Sequence record: ON568341.1
Direction: 5' to 3' (one strand)
DNA: 64,000 bases
Source of the DNA: Escherichia phage UE-S1
Notes under the pieces: model-generated
Seen by the model: only the letters and a program-made list of their open reading frames with translations
The model's database searches: none
What the model was told of the DNA's origin: nothing
In this document: positions 27,566 through 50,024 of the stretch, piece after piece
Numbering within the stretch: the stretch's first letter is position 1
Layout of the letters: every line of letters begins with the position of its first letter
Translations under genes and position numbers: made by a program

Positions 27566-27949
27566 ATGGTTGATAAATGGAATAAGAAAGATCCATCCCA
27601 TGATGTTGATATTTCTGATCTAGATGATGCACATAAGCATAAGTATCTAGATTCACTAGGTCTTCTCAAACCGGACCAAAGTCTTGCACACGAACGCCCA
27701 TCACGTGAAAAAGCATTCAGTCTAGAATCACTTGGTCATGAGCTAAATCGTGTGTTTGAAGAACACCCAATTTATGTACGTGATATTATTGAGAAACTTA
27801 AAGTAACTCCTAAAGAGCACTTTAAAGCAACTGTACATTCTGCATTCCGTGCATTGCATGATTCTCTCAAGAAAACTCATAATCTTCGTAAAATTCATGA
27901 TGAAATTGTGAATGCAATCGAAAGTGAAAAGCATAAGTTCAAGAAGTAA
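27566..27949 (+). CDS. hypothetical protein (127 aa), K/E-rich
   Basis: AGGAG RBS; shares LDSLGLL motif with next gene. Confidence 0.5.
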   Translation: MVDKWNKKDPSHDVDISDLDDAHKHKYLDSLGLLKPDQSLAHERPSREKAFSLESLGHELNRVFEEHPIYVRDIIEKLKVTPKEHFKATVHSAFRALHDSLKKTHNLRKIHDEIVNAIESEKHKFKK

Positions 27950-28014: not shown

Positions 28015-29289
28015 ATGAAATCTATGGAGAGAAATCAAATGCCAAGTAATTTTACTGATAAAAATGGTGGTAACATGGCAGGTCACTCGGATAAATGGAG
28101 TGAACGCAACCGCCGACCAAATAGTTACCAAGCAGGTCAAGGTTCTCGTGGCTCCAGAAACCAAGGAACTGGTCTAGCTGGTAAAGCAAATGCTGAACCT
28201 GGTGAAGTTAAAAGTACTGAGAACATGACTGAGCTAGAAAAACTACGCTACGTTAATTCATTGGGACTTCTTAATGCTACACAAAAACAACGTCTAGCTG
28301 ATATGGAACGTGAAGAAAAAGAAAAGACTGCTCCTGCGAAAGAAGAACCAAAACAAGAAGCACCAAAGGCGGTTAACCCTGTCAAAGAACTGTCTGATAA
28401 GTTAGGTAAGATCTTTGCAAATAAACCCCAACTTATTCAAGGTATTGTCAAAGAATTGCAATCTGTACCTAAAGAAGAATTAAAAGCCAAAGCACAAGCT
28501 GTTCTGGATGCAATGAAAGGAAATACCAGTACTGAACCAACCGAAGTATTCAGTACTATTATGCGTGCACTGGAAGGTAAACAACAAGGTGAAGAACGTG
28601 GTGATGAAGTAAGTCTTGAACGTGTTCTTAAAACATTTGATAGTATTGGGAAAGAAGACCGTGTTAATGCACAACAGGTTAAAAATGTACTAGCAAAATT
28701 GGAAAACCGTCTAGAAGGTAAAGATGATAAGATTAAATTGGTATCCGATGCAGTTGAAAATGCACTTAAATCTTATGTACAAGGTGAAAAGAGTCGTTTT
28801 GTAACTGCTATGGATGCTGCATTCAATACTATGAAAAAGTACGAAGCGGATCATGGAGAGAAGGTAACACGAGATGGTTATTTAATGCGTGATGATGAAG
28901 AAGGTGCAGTGGAACAGAATGATGCTCATTCTGACGAAGATATTGATGACATGGAAGCAGAACTGTCACAGGACCGCCAAATGACTGAAAAATCTCACAA
29001 TGAACTACAGAAATTAATGCAGTGGGTTGCAGAAGTAGGTGAAAAGGCTGGTGAAGATAAGAAGAGTATCAACCGAAACCTAAGTTGGATTAAAGATAAG
29101 GTTGGTAATAACGCTCGTAAACTACAAAAAGCATGGACTGATGTAGTGAATGGTGCGGTAGATATTGATGTTGAGTCTGGTGAAGCATATGATTATGCAT
29201 TGACTACACTTGATGATTCTTTTCGTGACTACGAAAAAGGAAACGTTACTCCTTGGGAAAAGGACATAATGAGTAAATATGGTAAATGA
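28015..29289 (+). CDS. hypothetical protein, highly charged K/E-rich
   Basis: Track ORF 27961 trimmed to ATG downstream of the terminator; paralogous motif SLGLL. Confidence 0.5.
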   Translation: MKSMERNQMPSNFTDKNGGNMAGHSDKWSERNRRPNSYQAGQGSRGSRNQGTGLAGKANAEPGEVKSTENMTELEKLRYVNSLGLLNATQKQRLADMEREEKEKTAPAKEEPKQEAPKAVNPVKELSDKLGKIFANKPQLIQGIVKELQSVPKEELKAKAQAVLDAMKGNTSTEPTEVFSTIMRALEGKQQGEERGDEVSLERVLKTFDSIGKEDRVNAQQVKNVLAKLENRLEGKDDKIKLVSDAVENALKSYVQGEKSRFVTAMDAAFNTMKKYEADHGEKVTRDGYLMRDDEEGAVEQNDAHSDEDIDDMEAELSQDRQMTEKSHNELQKLMQWVAEVGEKAGEDKKSINRNLSWIKDKVGNNARKLQKAWTDVVNGAVDIDVESGEAYDYALTTLDDSFRDYEKGNVTPWEKDIMSKYGK

Positions 29290-29298
29290 TAACAAAAA

Positions 29299-29322
29299 GG
29301 TTGACTTCGGTCAGCCTTTTTT
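29299..29322 (+). terminator. intrinsic terminator
   Basis: GGTTGAC-TTCG-GTCAGCC plus T6. Confidence 0.7.
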
Positions 29323-29358
29323 GTTATCATAGCTTTCCTAACTACAAAGGATGACGTG

Positions 29359-30000
29359 ATGACTAAGCAAGAAATATTCAAAACATTAATTGACATTTTA
29401 CGTTCATCTAAAACTCGTTGTGCAATGGAGTTTGATATTCCTTACGCTGAACGAGTCATCTTTCCACAAGTAAAAGCGGCAGGTCTTACTTTACTTGGTA
29501 TGGGGATGTACTCTGTAGTAGTTGAACATAAAAACTATCCAGGTCGTGCATTTAAAGTAACCACGTCACGATGGGATGGTTTTCGTGCTTATGCAAAGTA
29601 CTGTATTGATAACACAGGAACTAAGTTTCTTCCTGTAATATACAGTGCAAATGAACAAGGAAACTTTGGATGGTATGAAATGGATAAGTACTACCCTATC
29701 ATTAAACAAAAAAATAATTATGATGACTTTGTTAGTACTAAAATTGGAGATTTGTATTCGTATGCACATGCTGGTCAGTACGCAACTTCAGTGAATGAAC
29801 TGCGTGGAAATTCAGAAGAGATTGCCATTGCAACTGTTGCAGCTAACATAATGAAAGAGTTTCATGGTCGTTTTGTACCAGACATTCATTCCAGTAATGT
29901 GATGATGGATAAAGATGGAAATTTATTCATCACTGACCCTATTTCGTGTGATGTACGTCGAGAAATACCAATCACTGAAGAAGACCCAATTTTTTATTGA
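29359..30000 (+). CDS. protein-kinase-fold protein (putative kinase or phosphotransferase)
   Basis: DIHSSNVMMDKDGNLFITD matches catalytic-loop D..N and DFG-like spacing of eukaryotic-like kinases. Confidence 0.45.
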   Translation: MTKQEIFKTLIDILRSSKTRCAMEFDIPYAERVIFPQVKAAGLTLLGMGMYSVVVEHKNYPGRAFKVTTSRWDGFRAYAKYCIDNTGTKFLPVIYSANEQGNFGWYEMDKYYPIIKQKNNYDDFVSTKIGDLYSYAHAGQYATSVNELRGNSEEIAIATVAANIMKEFHGRFVPDIHSSNVMMDKDGNLFITDPISCDVRREIPITEEDPIFY

Positions 30001-30063
30001 CAGAACTTGTGTTCTGGTGTATATTAAGTGAATTATAAACAAATTGTGACACAGGATTAAATC

Positions 30064-30346: not shown

Positions 30347-30685
30347 ATGGAACAATATTTTGAATTAATTAATAAAGTGTCATTCTATGTAGTGTCATTG
30401 ATGTGGGTTTATTTCATGTTTTGCTACATTATTGCATTCTTCCGATACACTACTTTATATGAACGTATCTATTATGATGCACCGATTTCATTCTTGGTAT
30501 TCTGTGCGTGTACGTGGGGAATATTAGAAGTACTGATATGTGGATATAGTACTGATGAATTAAATCTGGTATCGGTATTGACTGGGTTATCACTTGGCGT
30601 TATGATATCTTTCTTTCCAGTATGGTTGTTCTTTGAGCTGTTCCATCGCATTGATGTATGGCGTTCTAATATCCCTGAAAAATAA
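30347..30685 (+). CDS. small membrane protein, paralogue family A (1 of 3)
   Basis: 3-4 hydrophobic helices; C-terminal tail R.NIPEK. Confidence 0.55.
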   Translation: MEQYFELINKVSFYVVSLMWVYFMFCYIIAFFRYTTLYERIYYDAPISFLVFCACTWGILEVLICGYSTDELNLVSVLTGLSLGVMISFFPVWLFFELFHRIDVWRSNIPEK

Positions 30686-30688
30686 GGA

Positions 30689-31036
30689 TTGATAATGATT
30701 TATTACACTAACGTGTTTGCCTATGCTGTTGCTTGCATTTACATTGTTTACTTCTTATTTGGTGGAGTGCTTTACTTCTTTAAGTACAAAACACTGTTTA
30801 ATAGGATGTATCCAAATCACCCTATCGTAGTTGTACTTTTGATTCTTTCTGTTTCCCAAATAATCGTTGAAACTACAATGGGTATCAGTAGTGTACATTA
30901 TAGCTTCGGTACTATAGTAATTATTACTATGCTTATTGCATACATTTTAGTACTTGGATATGGTATATTTGGTAATGTTGGAATGAAAATGTATCATCGA
31001 ATTAAAACCTTACGTGATAATCTACCGGAGCGTTAA
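30689..31036 (+). CDS. small membrane protein, paralogue family A (2 of 3)
   Basis: Shared FxYxTLxxRxY motif and tail LRDNLPER. Confidence 0.55.
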   Translation: MIMIYYTNVFAYAVACIYIVYFLFGGVLYFFKYKTLFNRMYPNHPIVVVLLILSVSQIIVETTMGISSVHYSFGTIVIITMLIAYILVLGYGIFGNVGMKMYHRIKTLRDNLPER

Positions 31037-31037
31037 T

Positions 31038-31382
31038 ATGTATAATTTAAACCTAATCTCATATATTATAACAACACTGTTTACATTCTATGCCTTTGTT
31101 GGTATAATCCTACTGTACTTTAAATTTTATAAAGTGTTTAACCGTTTCTATCCTTCAATGGAGAATGAGTTTTTCTTTGTGTTGTACGTAGGTTACACAT
31201 TAATGGCTACATGTTTCACTGTAGCCGATGGTGTCATCGGCATTAAAACTGATGCACCAAATGGTAGTACGCTGGTTGCATTTATTCTTACCGGATTCCT
31301 TGCAACTTATATTGCCTTCATTACAACATGGTCAGTAGTTGAATTTCTCTTGCGACTACGTAAGAATATGCCGAATCGATAG
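31038..31382 (+). CDS. small membrane protein, paralogue family A (3 of 3)
   Basis: Track ORF 31014 (GTG) trimmed to ATG after GGAG; tail LRKNMPNR. Confidence 0.5.
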   Translation: MYNLNLISYIITTLFTFYAFVGIILLYFKFYKVFNRFYPSMENEFFFVLYVGYTLMATCFTVADGVIGIKTDAPNGSTLVAFILTGFLATYIAFITTWSVVEFLLRLRKNMPNR

Positions 31383-33145: not shown

Positions 33146-33517
33146 ATGAATATAGATTTGAAAGGTGCAACCCGAACTGTTATTCTCATTGGGGAATACG
33201 CTATCAAGATTCCAACTTTCAAAAGCTGGAAGTTATTCTTAACGGGAATGATAGCTAACCTAAATGAACGTTCGTGGATGCAGTACTCCAATCGTAGTGA
33301 CAGTAGTATCTGTCCTACGTTGTGGTCATCATGTACTGGACTAGTAACTGTACAGAAACGTTGTAAGCCAATACATCATAGGGGTTTATTTTGGGTGGAG
33401 TTGTGTGCTTTAGCATTGAATTCAGAGTTAAGTGCTGACTTCTTCTATTCAGATGCGAAGCCAGAAAACTTTGGGTATCTGGGTGGTAAGTTAGTTAAAC
33501 TTGATTATGGAGATTAA
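33146..33517 (+). CDS. hypothetical protein (123 aa)
   Basis: Track ORF. Confidence 0.5.
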   Translation: MNIDLKGATRTVILIGEYAIKIPTFKSWKLFLTGMIANLNERSWMQYSNRSDSSICPTLWSSCTGLVTVQKRCKPIHHRGLFWVELCALALNSELSADFFYSDAKPENFGYLGGKLVKLDYGD

Positions 33518-39480: not shown

Positions 39481-40626
39481 TTATTTTTTCCAAGGAAGTA
39501 ACGAAGTTGGAATCTTGATAGGTATATTTGATGCAGCAACATCAGGAAAATTTGCATCTCCACAAACATACAAATTATCGATTTCGTCAATCAATAATGT
39601 ATAGTTGTAACTTCTACAAAAACCGCTTAAGCCTCTTCCCTCTAATGCAGATAAATTCATTTCAGTGAATTGAGTTATATATGTTTCATTTGAACCAACA
39701 CCACATTGACCATTAGCATTTATACCACAAGTAAGCAATTTATTATTGTTTTGAATTACACATGATGGTCCAGCAAGGTTCGTACCTAGTTCACCTACAA
39801 CATTAACTTCACCTTTTAATGATAAATTTTGGATCACTGTACTCATAGGGACACGCGATGTATTTCCAACACCTGCTTGTCCTGAGCCATTAGTGGATGC
39901 AACTTTAACAGTACCGTCATTAAGAAAAATATAAGATGTTTCGATGGTATTAACTGCTTGTGTAGCTGTTGTTATTGTCGTATCCTGCTTGAATTTAAGT
40001 ACATTTGTTGTTGTTGAACCAGATATAAATGTAGCACCTGCGTACCAATAGGTTCCATCTTGAAGTACTAAACCAGTACTTCTAATTGAACACCCTGCAC
40101 TGCGAACATTTTCTATATGACTATATGTAAAGGTTGATACGATTGAAGATTCACCATTACCGAACACCCCACCAGTACCTGCACCACAGAAAAACCATTT
40201 ACCGTTTTTCAAAAATACACGCATACAAGCAGAAATAACCACACTATCAATATCACTTGCAGCTACACCAAAATCGGTAAAGAAATGAGTTATATCAATC
40301 CAATTACCACCAGTATTTGATGGGAGATGGGGAATTACAACTCTAGTCCCTGTGTACCAGATTGTATCATCATCTTTAATAACAAGAGTACCTTGAACAC
40401 CACCCCAATACCTTGTTACATTTGTATTAACAAGCCTCCACTCAGTAGATGATTCAGTGGAGCCATTACCACCTTGACCATAAGATGATGAGCCGTGCCA
40501 GTATAAATTTCCATTTTTATCTAAATAAAATTTTGCATCAGCCGAACATTGCAATCTGTATTTGAATACGGTTTTTGGTGCTGGTGCAATATTTGCATAT
40601 TTTAGCATTCTACCAAAAGGTAACAT
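39481..40626 (-). CDS. RCC1-like beta-propeller protein with conserved MLPFGRM N-terminus (array member 9, most downstream)
   Basis: N-terminus MLPFGRMLKYANIAP; repeats such as GSSSYGQGGNG, CGAGTGGVFGNG, CGINANGQCGVG. Confidence 0.7.
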   Translation of the reverse strand: MLPFGRMLKYANIAPAPKTVFKYRLQCSADAKFYLDKNGNLYWHGSSSYGQGGNGSTESSTEWRLVNTNVTRYWGGVQGTLVIKDDDTIWYTGTRVVIPHLPSNTGGNWIDITHFFTDFGVAASDIDSVVISACMRVFLKNGKWFFCGAGTGGVFGNGESSIVSTFTYSHIENVRSAGCSIRSTGLVLQDGTYWYAGATFISGSTTTNVLKFKQDTTITTATQAVNTIETSYIFLNDGTVKVASTNGSGQAGVGNTSRVPMSTVIQNLSLKGEVNVVGELGTNLAGPSCVIQNNNKLLTCGINANGQCGVGSNETYITQFTEMNLSALEGRGLSGFCRSYNYTLLIDEIDNLYVCGDANFPDVAASNIPIKIPTSLLPWKK

Positions 40627-40665
40627 AATTTTTCTCCTTCATTCATTATACTGTATTTAATCCAA

Positions 40666-40693
40666 TTAAGAAAAGCTAGTATCAAGTACTGGC
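40666..40693 (-). terminator. inter-cassette hairpin plus T-run
   Basis: GCTAGTA-TCAAG-TACTGGC with T-rich tract on minus strand. Confidence 0.5.
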
Positions 40694-40704
40694 ATTTAAA
40701 AGAA

Positions 40705-41880
40705 TCAAATTGTCGGAAGTGGGAATTCTTTCATCACCGATGAACTGTTTGCTGCAATATTATCAGGAGATTTACCAGCGTAGTATAATTTATTATTAAT
40801 AAACATATATAGCGTTGCATCGTTCCCTGCTACAAGAGAATTACTTTTCTTAAAAATAACCCCTGGGGGTAAAATAGCTTCAACAAATGAACCTGATTCT
40901 CGTGTTGAATTGTTTGCCAATTGACCATTATTATTATAACCAGTACTATAAATTTTACCTGAACTATAATACACAAGACCACGTGTACTAATGTTTTCTA
41001 TACGAATGAATTCACTATCGTCCGGTACTGTAGTTGATAGAACTGGGTATAACTTATAAGCTGATGTTACATTATTATTACCCAATTGACCATAACCTTG
41101 AAAGCCTAGTGCATACATAGGACATGATTCTGGTGTACCTTTTGTTATAATACCAATATAATTCGAACTACAAAAAATATCCACTGCTTCTACAACATTT
41201 GTACCCTTATATTGAACCCAAGGAAATACATATGATTGTTGTTTGCCATTACCCAAAACACCGGAAGTTGTTGTACCTGTACGCCACATTGTATCATCAA
41301 GTTTAATAATCCAGTTAGCAGTTGTTATAGTTGAACAGAATTTTTTAACATTATCAACCAAGTATGTAAATTTATTATAATATGATGCAGTGTTTATTCC
41401 AAATTTAGCACCAGTATTGTCACCTAACAAATATAAACTATTATCTGTACCTAAAATCAAAACATAATCATGACCCACGTATATCTTTTTGATTTTTGAA
41501 ATACCAAATTGTGTAAAATAGCTGGTACATTCAGTGAATATTGTTACATGATTTGATGTATTATTACCTAGCCATTTATCTAAACCACTATAAAAGAACC
41601 TATCATCATTTGTGCGTATTAGACAAAAAGAATTATTTGTACTGCACCAGAAATCTTTGACATTACTATATATTTTTGTCCATTCAGTTACTTGATTAGT
41701 ATGACCTAAACCAAAAATTCCACCATTTTGTAGTCCCATAGCCCATATTGAACCATTTTTATCAAGAAGCATTGTGCATGTAAATGAATACCCACACGCT
41801 GGAGTAACTAATTTAACAAAATTGGGAATATATGGTAAAACTTTATTCCCATAATTCACCATTCTTCCAAAAGGTAACAT
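40705..41880 (-). CDS. RCC1-like beta-propeller protein with conserved MLPFGRM N-terminus (array member 8)
   Basis: MLPFGRMVNYGN; repeats GYGQLGNNN, NNNGQLANNS. Confidence 0.7.
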   Translation of the reverse strand: MLPFGRMVNYGNKVLPYIPNFVKLVTPACGYSFTCTMLLDKNGSIWAMGLQNGGIFGLGHTNQVTEWTKIYSNVKDFWCSTNNSFCLIRTNDDRFFYSGLDKWLGNNTSNHVTIFTECTSYFTQFGISKIKKIYVGHDYVLILGTDNSLYLLGDNTGAKFGINTASYYNKFTYLVDNVKKFCSTITTANWIIKLDDTMWRTGTTTSGVLGNGKQQSYVFPWVQYKGTNVVEAVDIFCSSNYIGIITKGTPESCPMYALGFQGYGQLGNNNVTSAYKLYPVLSTTVPDDSEFIRIENISTRGLVYYSSGKIYSTGYNNNGQLANNSTRESGSFVEAILPPGVIFKKSNSLVAGNDATLYMFINNKLYYAGKSPDNIAANSSSVMKEFPLPTI

Positions 41881-41916
41881 ATTCTCTCCTTATTCATTAT
41901 AATATATATTTAATAC

Positions 41917-41948
41917 AAATAATAATGCCAGTACTCAAATACTGGCAT
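41917..41948 (-). terminator. inter-cassette hairpin plus T-run
   Basis: ATGCCAGTA-CTCAA-ATACTGGCAT. Confidence 0.5.
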
Positions 41949-41953
41949 TATTA

Positions 41954-43144
41954 TTACAATTGTCTAGGTGTATCCAGAACATATCTATTTGTGCTAGGAC
42001 CGCCATCATCATAAGTTCCGGTTGAATATATATTTTTCATATCAGCAGTTAGAAATGTACGATACGAACCTCTATATATTTTTATTTTATCATACATATT
42101 ATATGTAATTTGTGCTGGCATTGGACATATAGTAAATCTTCCAATAGTCCCCACTGAACCTACCCCCAATGAGCCAGCATAACTACTCGCATTTAAACCA
42201 GTTGCATATACACCAGAACTCGTAACTAGTATACTAGATTGTGATGGGTATCCAGTATGAATTGAATACAAAGTTCCAGGTGGTAATGTCGTACTATTTC
42301 TCCCTAATACAGCAAGTGCCGAACTGGATGTGGTATTATTACCCCATGCACCATTACTTGCTAAACCACCAACTAGGAACTGACGTACACCCGTACTTGG
42401 ATTTTCCACCAAAGCACTGACTGAACCCATTGAGCATCCAGTGTATTGTAACGTTTTTGTGTATGTTGTACTTGGCTGATATAAAGTATATTCATTATAT
42501 AAAGTCCATGTAGTACTGGAACTTATACCGGATGTACCACCACCAATATATAAATTATTTTGTTTATCAAACAACATTACACAGTTATTTGTTGACATTA
42601 TTTGTGCAATATCAACATTAGGTGTTACTGCTTTTACAAATGAACCATCTGTTATTTGTTGAGTTTTTCCAGTACCATCAGCGAATTGTCTAGCCCCACT
42701 CCAACCAGTACTCCATATTGTATTATTATCCATTAAGAAAGTAAACCACGTAGTACCTGCATACATCTGTTTAATTGAAGTACTTGAACTTTGTTTGTAC
42801 AAATTTTCAATATATTGGTTATAACTTAAAAATGATGTAGTACTGGTTGGTAAACCAATATGACTACCAAATCCACAATAGAAATAATTTAAGTCATTAT
42901 CTTGAACTAACAAAGTTCCTTGTGTGATCCAGCAATCATTAACGTTTTCTCTAATTAATGTCCATGTTCTTAATGCAGTGTTGTTTCCTCTCCCAAACTG
43001 CCCAAAACTATTATTACCTCGTGCATATAGTTGACCATCAGTATAAAGTACAACAACATCAGTATCGGTTGTTAGTATTTTCTTAATTTGAAGTGGGATA
43101 GGTACAATATTCCCGTACTTAACCATTCTTGCAAAAGGTAACAT
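41954..43144 (-). CDS. conserved-N-terminus family protein, beta-propeller-like (array member 7)
   Basis: MLPFARMVKYGNIVP; G/S/T/N-rich with NSFGQFGRGNN repeat. Confidence 0.65.
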   Translation of the reverse strand: MLPFARMVKYGNIVPIPLQIKKILTTDTDVVVLYTDGQLYARGNNSFGQFGRGNNTALRTWTLIRENVNDCWITQGTLLVQDNDLNYFYCGFGSHIGLPTSTTSFLSYNQYIENLYKQSSSTSIKQMYAGTTWFTFLMDNNTIWSTGWSGARQFADGTGKTQQITDGSFVKAVTPNVDIAQIMSTNNCVMLFDKQNNLYIGGGTSGISSSTTWTLYNEYTLYQPSTTYTKTLQYTGCSMGSVSALVENPSTGVRQFLVGGLASNGAWGNNTTSSSALAVLGRNSTTLPPGTLYSIHTGYPSQSSILVTSSGVYATGLNASSYAGSLGVGSVGTIGRFTICPMPAQITYNMYDKIKIYRGSYRTFLTADMKNIYSTGTYDDGGPSTNRYVLDTPRQL

Positions 43145-43180
43145 ATTTTCCTCCTTTATTCATTATACTATATTTAATCA

Positions 43181-43208
43181 AAAAGAAAAGCCAGTATCAA
43201 GTACTGGC
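43181..43208 (-). terminator. inter-cassette hairpin plus T-run
   Basis: GCCAGTA-TCAAG-TACTGGC; minus strand followed by TTTTCTTTT. Confidence 0.55.
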
Positions 43209-43215
43209 CTATATT

Positions 43216-43953
43216 TTAGACTGAATTGTTAGGATAATATCTCCCCCTTCCCCATATTATTCGCACAGCACCACCACCAGCAGCCGTATAAGAAGAATTA
43301 TCCCATATACTACCACCACCACCATACCTCTTACCAGCACCACCACTACCAGCACCACCATTATATGAACCACCGTAGCTACCACCAATACCATTAGCAC
43401 CTTGAACAATGATACCAGTACCACCACCCGTACCAATGAACGAGGTACTATAGAATGTACCACCCCCACCGCCGCCACCAGCACCATTTTCACCAGTGAT
43501 TGCATCTCCGTTACCACCTTTACCAGTGTAGCCACCAGCACCACCACCAATGACTGCACCACCACTTACACCAGTGTTGCCACCATTACCACCACCATCA
43601 TTAATAGCGTTAGCAGCTTTTCCACCTAGTCCACCAACCGTATATGCACCAGTGAAGCTAACACATAGTTTTTCAGTTCCACGATATAAACCGTTTTCAA
43701 CTGCTGTAGTAGTGTTGGGATGTGTAAGAGAAACACTTAAGTACTCACCACCAGAAACCGGAATATTATTACGCCACGATAAGCCGCCACCAGCACCACG
43801 TTGACCACCCGGCGAAATAACACATACTGATATTTCGGTAACGCCAGCAGGAACTGTAAATTGTGTTGTTCCTATTGTCGTGATTAATTGTTCACCATGT
43901 GGCTTATATTCAATTTTATTCCCGAACTTAACCATTCTTCCAAAAGGTAACAT
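43216..43953 (-). CDS. conserved-N-terminus family protein with glycine-rich body (array member 6)
   Basis: MLPFGRMVKFGN then long GGxGG tracts. Confidence 0.65.
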   Translation of the reverse strand: MLPFGRMVKFGNKIEYKPHGEQLITTIGTTQFTVPAGVTEISVCVISPGGQRGAGGGLSWRNNIPVSGGEYLSVSLTHPNTTTAVENGLYRGTEKLCVSFTGAYTVGGLGGKAANAINDGGGNGGNTGVSGGAVIGGGAGGYTGKGGNGDAITGENGAGGGGGGGTFYSTSFIGTGGGTGIIVQGANGIGGSYGGSYNGGAGSGGAGKRYGGGGSIWDNSSYTAAGGGAVRIIWGRGRYYPNNSV

Positions 43954-43990
43954 AATTCCCTCCTTTATTTGTTATACTATATTTAATACA

Positions 43991-44018
43991 AAAAGAAAAG
44001 CCAGTACTCAGTACTGGC
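43991..44018 (-). terminator. inter-cassette hairpin plus T-run
   Basis: GCCAGTACT-CA-GTACTGGC. Confidence 0.55.
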
Positions 44019-44024
44019 ATAATG

Positions 44025-45167
44025 TCAATAAGTATCCCAAGGTAATGGTGTCTTCCTAAATCCATACCTGGTTGTGCTCGCACCATCACCAGCAATGTAT
44101 CTACCTATACCACATTGGTATAACTCTGTACTACTACATATAGCACCACCTATAGTACCACTACTCCACTGAATTATATTAGAATATGTTATTGGTAAAT
44201 CACTACATTTAGTATATACAGCAACGGTAGAAGCACCACTAATACCACCAAACATACTTCGCTTAGCACCAGTGTAATATATACCATCTGGACTCATAAA
44301 TGCAGAGGTGTAAGTTGTACTGCAATCCACTGGACTTCTTATTGTATTAAGATCGCCTGGATATGTTCTGACACCAAAGGTGTATACATTACCATCAGTT
44401 GTAATACCATTACCTAACTGCCCACTGTTTTGTCCACCACATGTAAGCAACGATGCAGAACCAGAAACAATTGCAGTAGCATTATACGAAGTGCCCATTG
44501 CAATAGAAGCACCAGACAATAGTTTTGGAGTAACAATAGCTGTTGTATTACCCTGGCCTAATTCACCATTTGTGTTTCGTCCCCATGCGTATATGGAAGT
44601 AGTATCCAACCTACATAGTACTGAACCATAACTAAACGTATATCGCATGTCAATTACCGCAGAAGGCAAATTAACCTTAGTTGCAACACTAATAACACCA
44701 CCAGTAACACCACTGTTTGCGTTCATGTTACGACCATATGCATATAAAGAACCATCTGAAGTTTTAATATGCATCATACCATCTGTACAATATAATGCAT
44801 CTATACTCTCCACCGCAACCGGACCCATACTGGTAGTTATATCGGTCCACCCAAGAGTAGTAGTACTAGAAATTAAGTTATTTCCTGCGTATAGTATTCT
44901 ATTATTATTAGTAACTACAACTGTATATCTGGCAGTAACACCAATTAATCGAACATCAGTATATATCTTAGACCACGCACCTAATGAATTGGTGTTTGCA
45001 TCCAAAAAGCCCAACTGCCCATCTGTATTGTATCCAATGCCCCATACATCACCTGCACTGTCCAATAACACTTCATGTGAAAATCCAATCTTAAAATCTT
45101 TTATTGTAGGAACTACCGGATCTGGTGCAATATTCCCGTACTTAACCATTCTAGTAAAAGGTAACAT
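44025..45167 (-). CDS. RCC1-like beta-propeller protein with conserved N-terminus (array member 5)
   Basis: MLPFTRMVKYGNIAP; repeats GYNTDGQLGF, GRNTNGELGQGN, GGQNSGQLGNG. Confidence 0.7.
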   Translation of the reverse strand: MLPFTRMVKYGNIAPDPVVPTIKDFKIGFSHEVLLDSAGDVWGIGYNTDGQLGFLDANTNSLGAWSKIYTDVRLIGVTARYTVVVTNNNRILYAGNNLISSTTTLGWTDITTSMGPVAVESIDALYCTDGMMHIKTSDGSLYAYGRNMNANSGVTGGVISVATKVNLPSAVIDMRYTFSYGSVLCRLDTTSIYAWGRNTNGELGQGNTTAIVTPKLLSGASIAMGTSYNATAIVSGSASLLTCGGQNSGQLGNGITTDGNVYTFGVRTYPGDLNTIRSPVDCSTTYTSAFMSPDGIYYTGAKRSMFGGISGASTVAVYTKCSDLPITYSNIIQWSSGTIGGAICSSTELYQCGIGRYIAGDGASTTRYGFRKTPLPWDTY

Positions 45168-45203
45168 AATTCCCTCCCTTATTCATTATAATATATTTAA
45201 TAC

Positions 45204-45234
45204 AAAAAAGAAAAGCCAGTACTTGAGTACTGGC
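45204..45234 (-). terminator. inter-cassette hairpin plus T-run
   Basis: GCCAGTACT-TG-AGTACTGGC. Confidence 0.55.
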
Positions 45235-45240
45235 ATTATG

Positions 45241-46350
45241 TTATTTTGGTAAATCAATTTTAGTAAAGACTGCAACATCCTCGCTTGCCCCAGGAATGGC
45301 GTAATACGATCCAGTACTATATACATCTCCGTCTTTGGTTAATATTGATGTTAAACCATCACTAAAAAGAACATCCCTAATCTCACTAACTTCAACGGGT
45401 AATTGTAAATTAGTAGCACTATATATTGCACCAGTTTGAGAATTGTTTAATCCCAAACCACGGTTCGCCCCAACACCCTTCTGATATGTACTAGTAATTA
45501 TCATTTGTGTAGCAGTATTTAAGGCAGGTGAATTCGTCATAAACAACGGAGAACTATTAGGCAAAGTACTTGCAGGAACTGCACGAAATGAAGTTGTATC
45601 TGAACTAAGAAAGTTTGGCGTTTGACCACATACGAAATATGATGTACCATTATAGTAATTAAATGCATTACCACCAATGACTGCATCGATTACACCAGAG
45701 CTACGTAATCCCCACGTGTTAATTTGTGTTCGGTTCCCCGTGCCATGCTGACCCCTGTCATTCCACCCAGAACTATATAACTTATTATCTAATGTAATAT
45801 ACATACTGTCATTTGCATTCGTCATTACTTTACGCACATTAGTAGCACATTGAGTTAATGTGTAAATTGATGATGAACCAATACCTAAAGCACCACGATA
45901 TCCATTAGCTCCTGCACCATAGAGTACTGAACTAGTGCTAAGTACAAATATTAAACCATACGAACATACAATATTAGCAATTTCACTCACTGGTATAGCA
46001 CTGGTAAACCAATTAGTTCTTTCAACTAATACTGTGCTGTAAGAAGTAGTTGTAGACGATGTGAACCAATATGTTTCCCCTGATGTCCATATAGTATTAT
46101 CATTTTTAATAATAACAAGTGCACGATCACCTACGAAAAAATTAGAAACATCTGCACTTACTAATATCCATGAAGATACCGTGTTTTTATTACCATTTCC
46201 AGATTCACCACCTTGATTTCTACCTATGTAATATAAATCATGTGAATCAGTTAATAAGAATTGACCCTGTGTAGATGCACCAACTTTAATTATATTTTTA
46301 GGACCAGGTACAATATTCCCATAATCAAACATTCTTACAAAAGGTAACAT
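45241..46350 (-). CDS. RCC1-like beta-propeller protein with conserved N-terminus (array member 4)
   Basis: Track ORF to 46365; start moved to internal ATG (MLPFVRMFDYGNIVP) with GGAG 9 nt upstream. Confidence 0.65.
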   Translation of the reverse strand: MLPFVRMFDYGNIVPGPKNIIKVGASTQGQFLLTDSHDLYYIGRNQGGESGNGNKNTVSSWILVSADVSNFFVGDRALVIIKNDNTIWTSGETYWFTSSTTTSYSTVLVERTNWFTSAIPVSEIANIVCSYGLIFVLSTSSVLYGAGANGYRGALGIGSSSIYTLTQCATNVRKVMTNANDSMYITLDNKLYSSGWNDRGQHGTGNRTQINTWGLRSSGVIDAVIGGNAFNYYNGTSYFVCGQTPNFLSSDTTSFRAVPASTLPNSSPLFMTNSPALNTATQMIITSTYQKGVGANRGLGLNNSQTGAIYSATNLQLPVEVSEIRDVLFSDGLTSILTKDGDVYSTGSYYAIPGASEDVAVFTKIDLPK

Positions 46351-46387
46351 AACTAAAATCTCCATATAATAATTATAATGTATTTAC

Positions 46388-46420
46388 AAAAAAATACCAG
46401 CACATATTTCAGTACTGGTA
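46388..46420 (-). terminator. inter-cassette hairpin plus T-run
   Basis: TACCAG..AGTACTGGTA stem with T7 on minus strand. Confidence 0.5.
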
Positions 46421-46425
46421 TAATG

Positions 46426-47607
46426 TTATGGTAAAATAATAGCTTGTAACGAACTCATACCCAATGTTGGAACACTCGCCTGTGGTGCTGGAGAATTCAA
46501 TTTTGGTGATGAAACCGCATATGACATTCCTGAACCCAAATCTGGATCAAAAACTACAGCACAATAATTCCCACTATATATAAGTCCATTCTTGTATCCT
46601 TGTGCACTTTGAATGCATTTCGTGAACGTACCAATATCTGTAGTGGCATTTATTAAGTTCCTCCCACGATAACCGCAGGTGTATATGAAATTATCATCGC
46701 CTATGTACATACTAGAATCCCCAGAAGAACTACATAGATACGACATATAAGCACGCATGTTTTTAGGAGCAACTGACAATGTACCTGCATAGAATTTATT
46801 ATTCGAACCCGTAATATTACCATCACCCAATGCACCAAAACTTCCCCAGCCAGTACCGTAATATCTCTTATCACTCAAAAATATAATACAGTTGTTATTA
46901 CACATCTTGATTTGATATATCAATGAAGGATCAATCCCAGGGAATGATTCAGTGAATGTTAGAACAGCCGGATCAGTACTAGCATTACATTGATGATATG
47001 TATTAGTACCAGCGGACAAGATTGTTCCATTAGCTAACAGAATTCTCGCAGTACCAGTACCAGCAGTACAAGCAACTGCACTTCCTGCACTTCCGGTGTA
47101 TATTTGTCTGAAAGTAAAGAAACCAACAGTTTTACTTCCCTGCCCACTCCAACCAGTATTATCAACTCCACACGCCCATACTGAACCATCTTGCATGATC
47201 ATCATTACACCAAAGCGTTCTATTGAAATATAAACAATCTTCGTTGTATCAACTGCACTAAATCTAGAAGTTATATCAGTCCATACCTTAACACTTACCG
47301 CCGTCGCACTGGAAGTAGGATCTTCACCAGCTATCATTATCCTCCCATTGTTAGTAAGATACATTGTCTGACTATAACCAGTACTACAAAACTTAACACT
47401 ATCAGTCTCTGGAACTTTTAACCACTCGTTGTAACGTGTTACGTTAGTGTTATTACCTAACTGATAATAGTTATTCATCCCAGATACATATAACACACCA
47501 TCCTTTATTAAACTATAAGTCGCACTATAGTCACTACAGGTATAACGTGTACCCACAGGTGGCTCAACGACGTTCCCGTACTTAACCATTCTCCCAAAAG
47601 GTAACAT
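46426..47607 (-). CDS. RCC1-like beta-propeller protein with conserved N-terminus (array member 3)
   Basis: MLPFGRMVKYGNVVEP; repeats NNYYQLGNN, DNTGWSGQGS, GSFGALGDGN. Confidence 0.7.
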   Translation of the reverse strand: MLPFGRMVKYGNVVEPPVGTRYTCSDYSATYSLIKDGVLYVSGMNNYYQLGNNTNVTRYNEWLKVPETDSVKFCSTGYSQTMYLTNNGRIMIAGEDPTSSATAVSVKVWTDITSRFSAVDTTKIVYISIERFGVMMIMQDGSVWACGVDNTGWSGQGSKTVGFFTFRQIYTGSAGSAVACTAGTGTARILLANGTILSAGTNTYHQCNASTDPAVLTFTESFPGIDPSLIYQIKMCNNNCIIFLSDKRYYGTGWGSFGALGDGNITGSNNKFYAGTLSVAPKNMRAYMSYLCSSSGDSSMYIGDDNFIYTCGYRGRNLINATTDIGTFTKCIQSAQGYKNGLIYSGNYCAVVFDPDLGSGMSYAVSSPKLNSPAPQASVPTLGMSSLQAIILP

Positions 47608-47642
47608 AATAAAATCTCCGTAATTAAATTATATAGTATTTA

Positions 47643-47676
47643 CAAAAAATACCAGTACATATTTCAGTACTGACCT
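47643..47676 (-). terminator. inter-cassette hairpin plus T-run
   Basis: CAGTAC-loop-GTACTG palindrome with T-run. Confidence 0.5.
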
Positions 47677-47680
47677 ATTA

Positions 47681-48802
47681 TTAAAAGGGCAACGGTAACT
47701 CAGTAAAAGTACTTACGTCCGGTAAACCATACATTAAATTAGCATCACCACAGTAATACCACTTCGTAGAATCATGTACCACCGATAAACGCTGTGCACA
47801 TAACACTTCCTGTATGTCATTAAACACCATCGGGACTAACTCATATGTATCTGCAAATGAAGATTCACTACCACTCGCATGAAAAGTATTTGTCCCAGCA
47901 TAAAATAACTGATTAGTGTTCTTACCCACAGCAAATGTTATCAAAACCCCATCATTCTCCCATAAAGAAGAAAACTTATCAACACTACCAGAAAGCTCTG
48001 TGTAAGTACTCGTAATGGCACTCGCCGCCGCCGCATTACCCATCTGTTTATTCAAGTTCTGTCCAGCAATAAAATATCTCGTTCGTGCACTAGAATCAGT
48101 ATATAATAACCCAGTGTTCGTAGTCATCATTCCAATGTCCTTAATCGTCATATCAGTCTGTGAATAACTTAGATACGAAGTTAAATTAACATTATTACCC
48201 AACGAACCGTTAGAACTCATGCCACAACGATGTAATATACCACTTGTATCAACGTAGATAGTACTAACTAAACTCGTATACAACTCTTGTACATTATTCG
48301 CAATAAACACAGCAGTCGCCTTATTACTAACCCCACCAAATGATAGGTTATTATCAAATCCCTTAGCGTATAATTGATTATTAGTAGTCAATAATCCAAT
48401 CGTGTAATAAGACATTTTCATATCCCTTACTGTACTCAAATCTACTGCCCCAAATTGATACGTAACATCTGTCCATTTGAAAATCTGTGCACTACCAACA
48501 CCACCCGTTTCAAACCATTTGTCACCACAGTACAATATGCGATTATCCTTAGTAAAGATAACTGTTAACAATCCACTACCACACGCAAACTTTACATCAC
48601 TTCTAACCTTCGTCCAATCAAGTACATAGGTAGTGGTGTTATTACCTATACCTAACTTGCCATAACGGTTATAACCACGCACCCATAAATCACCACTCTT
48701 AGTAATTAATAGTAATGCGTCTCCTGTACTTATTATTCGAAATCCCGAACTAGGATCAGGGGCAATATTCCCGTACTTAACCATTCTCCCAAAAGGTAAC
48801 AT
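47681..48802 (-). CDS. RCC1-like beta-propeller protein with conserved N-terminus (array member 2)
   Basis: MLPFGRMVKYGNIAPDP; repeats GYNRYGKLGIGNN, SSNGSLGNN. Confidence 0.7.
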   Translation of the reverse strand: MLPFGRMVKYGNIAPDPSSGFRIISTGDALLLITKSGDLWVRGYNRYGKLGIGNNTTTYVLDWTKVRSDVKFACGSGLLTVIFTKDNRILYCGDKWFETGGVGSAQIFKWTDVTYQFGAVDLSTVRDMKMSYYTIGLLTTNNQLYAKGFDNNLSFGGVSNKATAVFIANNVQELYTSLVSTIYVDTSGILHRCGMSSNGSLGNNVNLTSYLSYSQTDMTIKDIGMMTTNTGLLYTDSSARTRYFIAGQNLNKQMGNAAAASAITSTYTELSGSVDKFSSLWENDGVLITFAVGKNTNQLFYAGTNTFHASGSESSFADTYELVPMVFNDIQEVLCAQRLSVVHDSTKWYYCGDANLMYGLPDVSTFTELPLPF

Positions 48803-48837
48803 ATTTTCCTCCTTTATTCATTATACTATATTTAATA

Positions 48838-48869
48838 CAAAAAGAAATGCCAGTATCAAGTACTGGCAT
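48838..48869 (-). terminator. inter-cassette hairpin plus T-run
   Basis: ATGCCAGTA-TCAAG-TACTGGCAT. Confidence 0.55.
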
Positions 48870-48875
48870 ATTAAT

Positions 48876-50024
48876 TCATTGTATAAATGACATATCTACT
48901 TCTGTATAATTAAGAACGTTCTGTCCAGAAATACCACCCATTACTACTATTGCAAGGCCACAATAATATAATTTTCCAGTATCCGTAAGTATAAGTGATC
49001 CAGATGGACTGCGTACCAAATCACACGAACTATTAAAAGAAGTATAAGAAGGAGTATAGGAGTACTGATTATTATTATTACCAACACCTAATTGCCCAAA
49101 CCCATTCGATCCAGAAGCATATAGAACTTCATCTGCTTTGACAATATGTGATGCCATGTTACCAACACAAGTATATAGAGTATAAACTCCTGAACTCAAT
49201 AATGTCGGAGTTTTATATTGTATATCTGTAGATGTAGAAGTACCACCTGTACCAAATTCGTTCCCATATTGTGCACCGAACTGTTTGCCACAAGCGTACA
49301 AATTATTATCCGATTTGATAAAAAATGTACTCTGATAACTTACATTAAAATCTATAACATCCGAAGAAATCATCGTCACCCCAGTAATAGAAGTTTGATT
49401 ACCCGTGCCCAACTGGTAGTAATAGTTAAAACCACAACCCCATAAAGTATTATCTTCTCGCAAATAAATGTTACCAACTGCCTTTTTAACCGAAGTTATA
49501 GTATCTACTCTTTTGAATGTGTTAAAAGAATTAATGTTTGTACCATCACCAAATGATGATATGTTCGATATATTGTTAACTCCACAACAATACAATGTAC
49601 CATCTTTTGTTATCAAATTCACCTTCATATCATAAAAACTACTCATGTATTTTATATCAGAAACATTAACACCACTTGATGTTATCCACGTAGTACAGTC
49701 CGTCCACAAAGTTTTTCTATCAGTTACACCAGTGAATGCCTTCGTGTTACCAGTGATAAAAACTTTTCCAGTACCTTTCTCTTCATACAATTGACAATCA
49801 CTACTGTTATCTTCCAATAGAACTCGTTTAACATTCTCCGCACAAAGAATAAATTTACTCGATGCTACACCTGTACCAGTACCCCAATTCGTCGCAGAAG
49901 ATGCATACAACTTATCAGTATAAGTATCATGAAGATACATAGAATCACTGGAATATATTTTAAAACGCCCTTCTTTCTCAGGTATAATATTCCCGTACTT
50001 AACCATTCTCCCAAAAGGTAACAT
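48876..50024 (-). CDS. RCC1-like beta-propeller protein with conserved N-terminus (array member 1, most upstream)
   Basis: MLPFGRMVKYGNIIPE; repeats GFNYYYQLGTGN, GSNGFGQLGVGNN. Confidence 0.7.
   Translation of the reverse strand: MLPFGRMVKYGNIIPEKEGRFKIYSSDSMYLHDTYTDKLYASSATNWGTGTGVASSKFILCAENVKRVLLEDNSSDCQLYEEKGTGKVFITGNTKAFTGVTDRKTLWTDCTTWITSSGVNVSDIKYMSSFYDMKVNLITKDGTLYCCGVNNISNISSFGDGTNINSFNTFKRVDTITSVKKAVGNIYLREDNTLWGCGFNYYYQLGTGNQTSITGVTMISSDVIDFNVSYQSTFFIKSDNNLYACGKQFGAQYGNEFGTGGTSTSTDIQYKTPTLLSSGVYTLYTCVGNMASHIVKADEVLYASGSNGFGQLGVGNNNNQYSYTPSYTSFNSSCDLVRSPSGSLILTDTGKLYYCGLAIVVMGGISGQNVLNYTEVDMSFIQ

What the first reader, a model, noticed from the sequence alone, without database searches (positions are those of the whole stretch)
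29359..30000. Protein-kinase-fold gene among the early genes
The motif DIHSSNVMMDKDGNLFITD has the D-x4-N catalytic loop and a downstream metal-binding Asp at the spacing seen in eukaryotic-like kinases and aminoglycoside or Kdo kinases. Phage kinases such as T7 gp0.7 reprogram the host by phosphorylation.
Basis: inference. Interest (0 to 1): 0.5.

Follow-up and report, generated by a model that had tools for sequence, protein, structure and literature searches.

The report
T7-type protein kinase in jumbo coliphage
The gene is a real, probably active protein kinase of the phage T7 gp0.7 (T7K) family, in a short form without T7's DNA-binding/shut-off domain; it is carried by a giant E. coli phage and is already annotated and published for close relatives, so the call is correct but not new.

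The parts
29359..30000 (+). CDS of the T7K-family protein kinase, kinase domain only (213 aa plus TGA stop)
29497..29514 (+). Glycine-rich (ATP phosphate-binding) loop G47-M-G49-M-Y-S52; G47 and G49 are invariant
29554..29556 (+). Codon of K66 (AFKV), the beta3 'VAIK' lysine equivalent; invariant, also in T7K
   Evidence: falls in strand 63-68 of the model
29881..29937 (+). Catalytic loop D175-I-H177-S-S-N180 through the DFG-equivalent D193 (the DPI motif continues to 29943); aligns with T7K DMHSGN...D213-P-V
   Evidence: PMC13645617 section 10 for DPV = DFG
29944..29946 (+). Codon of S196, equivalent of T7K Ser216 (reported inhibitory autophosphorylation site); Ser in only 3 of 20 jumbo-clade homologs
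   Evidence: PMC13645617 section 10
29950..29997 (+). Clade-specific conserved tail D198-V-R-R-E-I-P-I-T-E-E-D-P-I-F-Y (D198, R200, I203, P204, E207 at 90% or more); replaces the T7K linker and shut-off domain; role unknown
   Evidence: pLDDT 75-79
29299..29330 (+). Terminator/promoter cassette: hairpin GGTTGAC-TTCG-GTCAGCC plus a T-run; -35 TTGACT (29301-29306) lies inside the hairpin, then TG (29322-29323) and -10 TATCAT (29325-29330)
   Evidence: annotated as a terminator at the same position in G17
29348..29351 (+). Shine-Dalgarno AGGA, 7 nt before ATG 29359
   Evidence: conserved in relatives
29997..30025 (+). Promoter-like site TTGACA-17-TATATT (11 of 12) overlapping the kinase stop codon, with a weak hairpin at 30001-30016; probably drives the next gene (30064)
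   Evidence: consensus match only

Best explanation
The gene encodes a catalytically competent Ser/Thr(/Tyr) protein kinase of the phage T7 gp0.7 (T7K; Pfam Phage_T7_kinase) family, reduced to the kinase domain. SHOWN: it is homologous to T7K, and it has a protein-kinase-like fold with an N-lobe (beta1-3, alphaC, beta4-5), two C-lobe helices, a catalytic loop and a DFG-equivalent. G47/G49 (ATP phosphate loop), K66 (beta3 Lys), D175 (catalytic base), N180 and D193 (Mg2+ ligands) are invariant, as are the family-specific H177 and P194. The chain ends 20 residues after the DFG-equivalent, so there is no activation segment, no alphaF-alphaI bundle and no T7K shut-off/DNA-binding domain. A conserved hairpin terminator with an embedded sigma70 extended -10 promoter lies 29-60 nt upstream of the ATG. 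INFERRED: host RNA polymerase transcribes the gene early from that promoter. [quoted passage not shown] The enzyme phosphorylates host proteins, and possibly phage proteins, to aid takeover and to blunt defence systems, as shown for T7K and JSS1_004. Because it lacks the DNA-binding domain that steers T7K to nucleic-acid-binding substrates, its substrate bias should differ.
Against: [quoted passage not shown] In JSS1 both the kinase and SO domains were needed to defeat DndFGH (PMC12345140), so an SO-less kinase may not be an anti-defence factor of the same kind. The acceptor-depletion signature reported for early proteins of T7K-encoding Autographiviridae is absent: the kinase is 18.3% S+T+Y and its gene block 17.8%, against 9.5% for T7K. 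That argues against T7K-level hyperpromiscuity, or for different timing. Local Pfam, NCBIfam and PDB sequence searches gave no significant hit. TM-scores to cellular kinases are low (~0.4) because half of the C-lobe is missing. Early timing is inferred only; the two upstream genes encode virion-associated proteins in phAPEC6.
Confidence: 0.85

Rival explanations
1. It is a small-molecule kinase with the same fold (aminoglycoside, Kdo/LPS or choline-kinase type), phosphorylating an antibiotic, sugar or lipid rather than proteins.
Confidence: 0.04
2. It is a pseudokinase or ATP-binding scaffold that has lost catalysis after losing the shut-off domain.
For: It is truncated relative to T7K. There is no acceptor depletion in itself or its neighbours. 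No activity has been measured in this clade.
Against: Every catalytic residue (G-loop, K66, D175, N180, D193) is invariant across homologs down to 39% identity and shared with T7K. Pseudokinases typically lose at least one of these.
Confidence: 0.04
3. It is a full functional equivalent of T7 gp0.7, as the transferred database annotation says (inhibitor of host transcription; regulates RNase III and RNase E).
For: This annotation text is attached to PHROG 15752 and to orthologs in JP4, PBECO4 and 121Q RefSeq records.
Against: T7 host-transcription shut-off maps to the C-terminal domain, which is absent here. The alignment ends at T7K residue ~236 of 359. PHROG 2828 profile positions 223-366 are unmatched. 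No SO-domain homolog is found anywhere in the 64-kb window (tblastn best E=4.3). RNase III/E phosphorylation could be retained but is untested.
Confidence: 0.05

Closest known systems
Orthologs in Asteriusvirus jumbo coliphages: 121Q gp205, vB_EcoM_G17 G17_00108, phAPEC6 gp031c, Sharanji gp144 (WNN14432.1), JP4 CDS0185, SP27
   Same: 95-96% protein identity, 213 aa, same synteny (followed by the 93-aa gene and small membrane-protein genes), and the same upstream terminator/promoter cassette. Already annotated 'protein kinase' (CDD PHA00451; 'Klebsiella phage K11 gp0.7; PKc_like').
   Different: In those phages three extra small genes (~1.1 kb) lie between the virion-associated protein gene and the kinase; the window lacks them. 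Sharanji and cluster P0001 call a start 11 codons upstream that overlaps the promoter.
Bacteriophage T7 gp0.7 (T7K, UniProt P00513), kinase domain
   Same: Homologous over query 41-196 against T7K 68-216 (27% identity). It shares the G-x-G loop, beta3 Lys, D-x-H-x-x-N catalytic loop, ITDP motif (DPV/DPI in place of DFG) and the Ser just after it (S196 = Ser216). T7K-family predicted structures match the model at TM 0.70-0.75.
   Different: No basic linker and no C-terminal shut-off/DNA-binding domain (213 against 359 aa). DPI rather than DPV. A different N-terminal helical extension. A clade-specific acidic tail. Not depleted in Ser/Thr/Tyr (18.3% against 9.5%). Carried by a ~350-kb myovirus that uses host RNAP plus a phage sigma factor, not a 40-kb podovirus with its own RNAP.
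JSS1_004 / Bas68 kinase (T7-like Salmonella and E. coli phages)
   Same: Same kinase family. These are early-expressed anti-defence kinases that phosphorylate Ser/Thr/Tyr of defence proteins (PMC12345140; PMC13645617).
   Different: They are two-domain proteins, and both domains are required against DndFGH. The window protein has only the kinase domain.
Salmonella phage Munch-type and other short-form T7K homologs (P0002-P0022; BFVD A0A3T0IG88)
   Same: Kinase-only architecture of 209-237 aa, 38-64% identity, same invariant residues, and location in one-directional arrays of small genes on contigs up to 366 kb.
   Different: One subclade has a ~20-residue basic insertion between the two C-lobe helices. 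Most have Gly or Ala instead of Ser at the Ser216-equivalent position.
Eukaryotic-like Ser/Thr protein kinases (e.g. M. tuberculosis PknB, 1mru)
   Different: No Pfam Pkinase hit. His rather than Lys at catalytic D+2. DPI instead of DFG. No activation segment/APE and no alphaF-alphaI helices. Three N-terminal helices (aa 3-40) not found in ePKs.

Membership tests
T7K family (Pfam PF27024 Phage_T7_kinase; PHROG 2828/15752) | Significant match to the T7K family profile (Bartolec et al. criterion: E<1e-10 to a PHROG 2828-derived kinase HMM) | tested here: met
   PHROG 2828 E=3.9e-17, profile positions 65-222; PHROG 15752 E=3.3e-89; BLASTP to T7 gp0.7 E=9e-10
T7K family (Pfam PF27024 Phage_T7_kinase; PHROG 2828/15752) | Score above the Pfam PF27024 gathering threshold | not testable with these tools
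   The local Pfam copy lacks the model (0 hits). By proxy, all 22 homologs, including one 95% identical, carry a precomputed PF27024 hit.
T7K family (Pfam PF27024 Phage_T7_kinase; PHROG 2828/15752) | Catalytic loop D-x-H-x-x-N and a D-P-x motif in place of DFG | tested here: met
   D175-I-H-S-S-N180 and D193-P-I; invariant in the clade and aligned to T7K DMHSGN / D213-P-V
T7K family (Pfam PF27024 Phage_T7_kinase; PHROG 2828/15752) | Glycine-rich loop and beta3 lysine | tested here: met
   G47, G49 and K66 are invariant and shared with T7K
T7K family (Pfam PF27024 Phage_T7_kinase; PHROG 2828/15752) | Protein kinase activity (Ser/Thr/Tyr) | not testable with these tools
   Needs biochemistry or phosphoproteomics; untested for any jumbo-phage member
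Full-length T7 gp0.7 (bifunctional kinase plus shut-off protein) | C-terminal basic shut-off / DNA-binding domain | tested here: not met
   The protein ends 20 aa after D193. tblastn with T7K residues 221-359 against the whole window gives a best E of 4.3.
Full-length T7 gp0.7 (bifunctional kinase plus shut-off protein) | Early (class I) expression by host RNA polymerase | tested here: inconclusive
   A conserved sigma70 extended -10 promoter lies upstream, but I found no expression data, and the adjacent upstream genes encode virion-associated proteins in phAPEC6.
Protein-kinase-like (PKL) fold superfamily | Bilobal kinase fold detectable by structure comparison | tested here: met
Canonical eukaryotic-like protein kinases (Pfam PF00069 Pkinase) | Pkinase profile match; activation segment (DFG...APE) and alphaF-alphaI C-lobe | tested here: not met
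   No Pfam hit at E<=10. The chain ends shortly after the DFG-equivalent.
Aminoglycoside / Kdo (LPS) kinases | Profile match to the APH (PF01636) or Kdo (PF06293) families | tested here: not met

The most novel reading that the evidence does not exclude
The SO-less jumbo-phage T7K homolog may not be a hyperpromiscuous 'phosphorylate everything' enzyme like T7K. It could instead be a more selective kinase whose targeting relies on the clade-specific N-terminal helices or the conserved acidic tail (D198...F212). It could also be one arm of a multi-kinase arsenal. Asteriusvirus genomes carry at least two further kinase-like genes: the 123-aa mini-kinase-like ORF at 33146-33517 and the Sharanji gp063 type, which lies outside this window. 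Supporting hints are the absence of Ser/Thr/Tyr depletion in the kinase and its neighbours and the loss of the Ser216-type autoinhibitory site in most of the clade.
Probability: 0.3. Interest if true: 0.45.

Novelty: already known. Interest (0 to 1): 0.2.

Why it matters
T7K-type kinases were recently shown to be broad anti-defence weapons that phosphorylate most of the host proteome (PMC13645617). The jumbo-phage branch is a natural experiment: it has the same catalytic core without the DNA-binding domain that steers T7K to nucleic-acid-binding targets. Knowing whether such a kinase is still promiscuous and still anti-defence would show which part of T7K confers which property. It would also matter for therapeutic use of Asteriusvirus phages. 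That question is already stated in the literature, and this window adds context only, not a new kind of system.

Tried and rejected
1. Local Pfam-A (E<=10) and NCBIfam gave no hit for the kinase. The Pfam miss is because PF27024 is absent from the local copy, not because the protein is an orphan.
2. PDB sequence searches with the single sequence and with the profile gave nothing significant. The best kinase hit had E=0.69, though its catalytic loop aligned in register. No member of this family appears to have a solved structure detectable by sequence.
3. I tested the motif alone as evidence and rejected it; it is not above chance. My first scan used the wrong spacing and I corrected it.
4. I searched for a separately encoded T7K shut-off domain in the window and found none.
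5. Ser/Thr/Tyr depletion as a footprint of hyperpromiscuity is not seen. The caveats are a crude ATG-only gene set, an AT-rich genome that inflates Tyr, and no defined early or late classes.
6. Virion packaging of the kinase, suggested by the 'virion structural protein' neighbours, is rejected for phAPEC6: gp031c is not among the 62 MS-detected proteins.
7. I tested whether the 123-aa ORF is related to the T7K-like kinase. hhalign shows no link. Its link to Sharanji gp063 is weak (E=0.001, probability 21%).
8. Sharanji's second kinase, gp063, is not encoded in this window.

Full report
OBSERVATION. An ORF runs from 29356/29359 to 30000 on the + strand. Its product contains DIHSSNVMMDKDGNLFITD at residues 175-193, nt 29881-29937. 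The start is ATG 29359. It is preceded by AGGA at 29348-29351, and in four relatives the alternative GTG reads GTA. The spacing D175/N180/D193 (+5, +13) equals that of D166/N171/D184 in PKA (my own knowledge). The pattern alone proves nothing: D-x4-N-x12-D occurs twice in the window's ORF space, against 3.3±1.8 expected from shuffles.

WHAT IT IS. PHROGs gives E=3.3e-89 to phrog_15752 and 3.9e-17 to phrog_2828, the family containing T7 gp0.7. Bartolec et al. used an HMM from phrog_2828, with a 1e-10 cut-off, to define T7K homologs. BLASTP against T7 gp0.7 itself gives E=9e-10 and aligns query 41-196 with gp0.7 68-216. DIHSSNVMM...ITDPIS lies on DMHSGNIMF...ITDPVS. tblastn finds 725 phage records. 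About 24 are jumbo phages with 60% identity or more; the rest are mostly Autographiviridae kinases at 26-31% identity. All 22 database homologs carry a precomputed PF27024 hit, which name as Phage_T7_kinase. The local Pfam copy lacks that model, which explains the empty result. In an alignment of 20 homologs down to 39% identity, G47, G49, K66, D73, D175, H177, N180, D193 and P194 are invariant. The same residues are shared with T7K.

STRUCTURE. AlphaFold2 on that alignment gives pLDDT 92.8 and pTM 0.88. The element order is:
- three N-terminal helices (3-40);
- beta1-beta3 (44-68, with the G-loop and K66);
- a helix (75-84);
- beta4-beta5 (94-109);
- a small hairpin;
- two helices (127-141, 152-168);
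- the catalytic loop (175-180);
- two short strands and D193.

CONTEXT. The window is ~93% identical in DNA to Asteriusvirus jumbo coliphages: CRJP21, G17, Sharanji, 121Q, SP27 and phAPEC6. Orthologs at 95-96% protein identity are already annotated as protein kinase: 121Q gene 205, G17_00108 (CDD PHA00451), phAPEC6 gp031c ('Klebsiella phage K11 gp0.7; PKc_like') and JP4 CDS0185. The Sharanji paper names WNN14432.1 as a T7-kinase homolog and possible anti-defence factor (PMC11895373). I confirmed that this protein is the syntenic ortholog. The 2026 Nature paper lists jumbophage homologs (G17, Munch). [quoted passage not shown] The finding is therefore already known.

WHAT I ADD.
1. The shut-off/DNA-binding domain is missing from the protein and from the whole 64-kb window (tblastn best E=4.3). 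The transferred annotation 'inhibitor of host transcription...' on orthologs is therefore unsupported.
2. A cassette lies 29-60 nt upstream of the ATG. It consists of the hairpin GGTTGAC-TTCG-GTCAGCC, a T-run, and -35 TTGACT / TG / -10 TATCAT. It is one of seven copies of the same 18-mer in the window, all on the + strand, against 0 expected. It is conserved at the same place in G17, Sharanji, phAPEC6 and JP4 although the upstream gene differs. It also sits directly upstream of the kinase in a distant metagenomic contig. It should terminate upstream transcription and start a sigma70-type transcript. Asteriusvirus phages rely on host RNAP plus a phage sigma factor. This makes early expression plausible (inference).
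3. 'Among the early genes' is still not clean. The phAPEC6 orthologs of the two genes just upstream (gp035c, gp037c) were detected in virions. The kinase (gp031c) was not.
4. T7K is strongly depleted in phospho-acceptors (9.5% S+T+Y), whereas this kinase has 18.3% and its gene block 17.8%. The depletion footprint that Bartolec et al. link to kinase promiscuity is absent. This is weak evidence for lower promiscuity or different timing.
5. S196 corresponds to T7K Ser216, the reported inhibitory autophosphorylation site. It is Ser in only 3 of 20 jumbo-clade homologs and Gly or Ala in the others. [quoted passage not shown]

MECHANISM.
- Shown: family membership, fold, an intact catalytic set, domain loss, and the promoter-like cassette.
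- Inferred: ATP is held by the G-loop and K66. D175 acts as the catalytic base, and N180 and D193 bind Mg2+. D-P-I keeps a DFG-in-like active state, as proposed for D-P-V of T7K. The enzyme is made early and phosphorylates host proteins.
- Uncertain: without the DNA-binding domain that gives T7K its bias to nucleic-acid-binding substrates (abstract), the substrate range should differ. In JSS1 the SO domain was also required against DndFGH, so an anti-defence role cannot simply be transferred.

RIVALS. A small-molecule kinase, a pseudokinase and a full gp0.7 equivalent are each unlikely, for the reasons given in their entries.

VERDICT. Novelty: already known. Interest: low (0.2). The open biological question about an SO-less T7K is real but is already stated in the literature.

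SIDE LEAD. The motif scan exposed a 123-aa ORF (33146-33517) ending ...SDAKPENFGYLGGKLVKLDYGD. In 13 homologs, G7, K21, E41, D103, K105, P106, N108, D120 and G122 are invariant. Its model (pLDDT 90.8) has the order beta1-beta2-beta3-alphaC-beta4-beta5-alphaE-catalytic loop-beta7-beta8-DYG. The family occurs in 118 phage records of many types and is nearly always annotated 'hypothetical'. It belongs to phrog_4301, of unknown function. It has no Pfam, PDB or T7K-profile link and only a weak in-register hhalign match to the kinase-like Sharanji gp063. It may be a minimal kinase-like family.

Noticed in passing
window 33146-33517 (+): A 123-aa ORF carries a complete protein-kinase catalytic signature: K21 in AIKIP, E41, D103-A-K-P-E-N108 and D120-Y-G122. 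It ends one residue after the DFG-equivalent. These residues are invariant in 13 homologs, and the AF2 model (pLDDT 90.8) has the kinase N-lobe plus catalytic-strip order. It belongs to phrog_4301 (unknown function), has no Pfam or PDB hit, and is widespread in unrelated phages (118 records), almost always annotated hypothetical. It is a possible ~120-aa mini-kinase family.
   Followed up: partly
window 16695, 25163, 27959, 29299, 33796, 35080, 63703 (+ strand, 18-mers): Seven copies of a hairpin, GGTTGAC-TTCG-GTCAGCC plus a T-run, which also contains -35 TTGACT followed by TGnTATAAT (a terminator/sigma70-promoter cassette); 0 expected by chance. The exact 18-mer is also present in relatives and in distant metagenomic contigs whose kinase is only 44-55% identical.
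   Followed up: partly
window ~29290-29300, compared with L001 7842-8931, L004 923-1937 and L005 1090-2179: Relatives (JP4, G17, Sharanji, phAPEC6) carry three extra small genes (~1.1 kb) between the virion-associated protein gene and the kinase. The window lacks them, so here the kinase directly follows that gene. The junction lies at a copy of the hairpin cassette, which may mark a recombination point.
   Followed up: no
window 27566-27949 and 28015-29289 (+): The two genes just upstream of the kinase match 'virion structural protein' PHROGs (16530, 20398) and are partly paralogous to each other. Their phAPEC6 orthologs gp037c and gp035c (the latter annotated 'chromosome segregation protein') were detected in virions by MS, whereas the kinase gp031c was not.
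   Followed up: partly
window 30347-30685, 30695-31036, 31038-31382 (+): Three adjacent ~112-115-aa hydrophobic proteins of similar length all end in N-[ILM]-P-[EN]-[KR]. By eye they look like tandem paralogs of a small membrane protein (one matches phrog_19285, unknown function). Paralogy was not tested.
   Followed up: no
window 39481-50024 (- strand): An array of nine ~245-396-aa ORFs lies on the opposite strand, with high Ser+Thr+Tyr content (26%). They may correspond to the ~40-kDa 'DNA condensation / RCC1-like' virion proteins of phAPEC6, but that mapping was not checked.
   Followed up: no
proteins P0030, P0032, P0034, P0035, P0036, P0041, P0045, P0049 (metagenomic, not in the window): Proteins of 572-1343 aa contain 2-5 tandem, nearly full-length T7K-like kinase domains in one polypeptide (e.g. 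P0030: five domains of ~150-190 aa across 1021 aa). Their origin is unknown, and they could not be looked up with the allowed tools.
   Followed up: partly
window 29944-29946 (S196); alignment A1: The equivalent of T7K Ser216, the reported inhibitory autophosphorylation site described as conserved in all variants in PMC13645617, is Ser in only 3 of 20 jumbo-clade homologs and Gly or Ala in the rest.
   Followed up: partly
database records of orthologs (JP4, PBECO4 and 121Q RefSeq; Sharanji gp144; cluster P0001): There are annotation problems. Sharanji and P0001 use a start 11 codons upstream that overlaps the promoter cassette.
   Followed up: yes
Sharanji OR545507.1 20026-20610 (L009 27-611, - strand); not in the window: Asteriusvirus genomes carry a further 194-aa kinase-like protein (gp063, WNN14351.1) with motifs IIGAGSS, VIKV, RDIRKQN and LDYG. 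Its Pfam Pkinase hit is sub-threshold (E=0.0024). It has no homolog in this window.
   Followed up: partly
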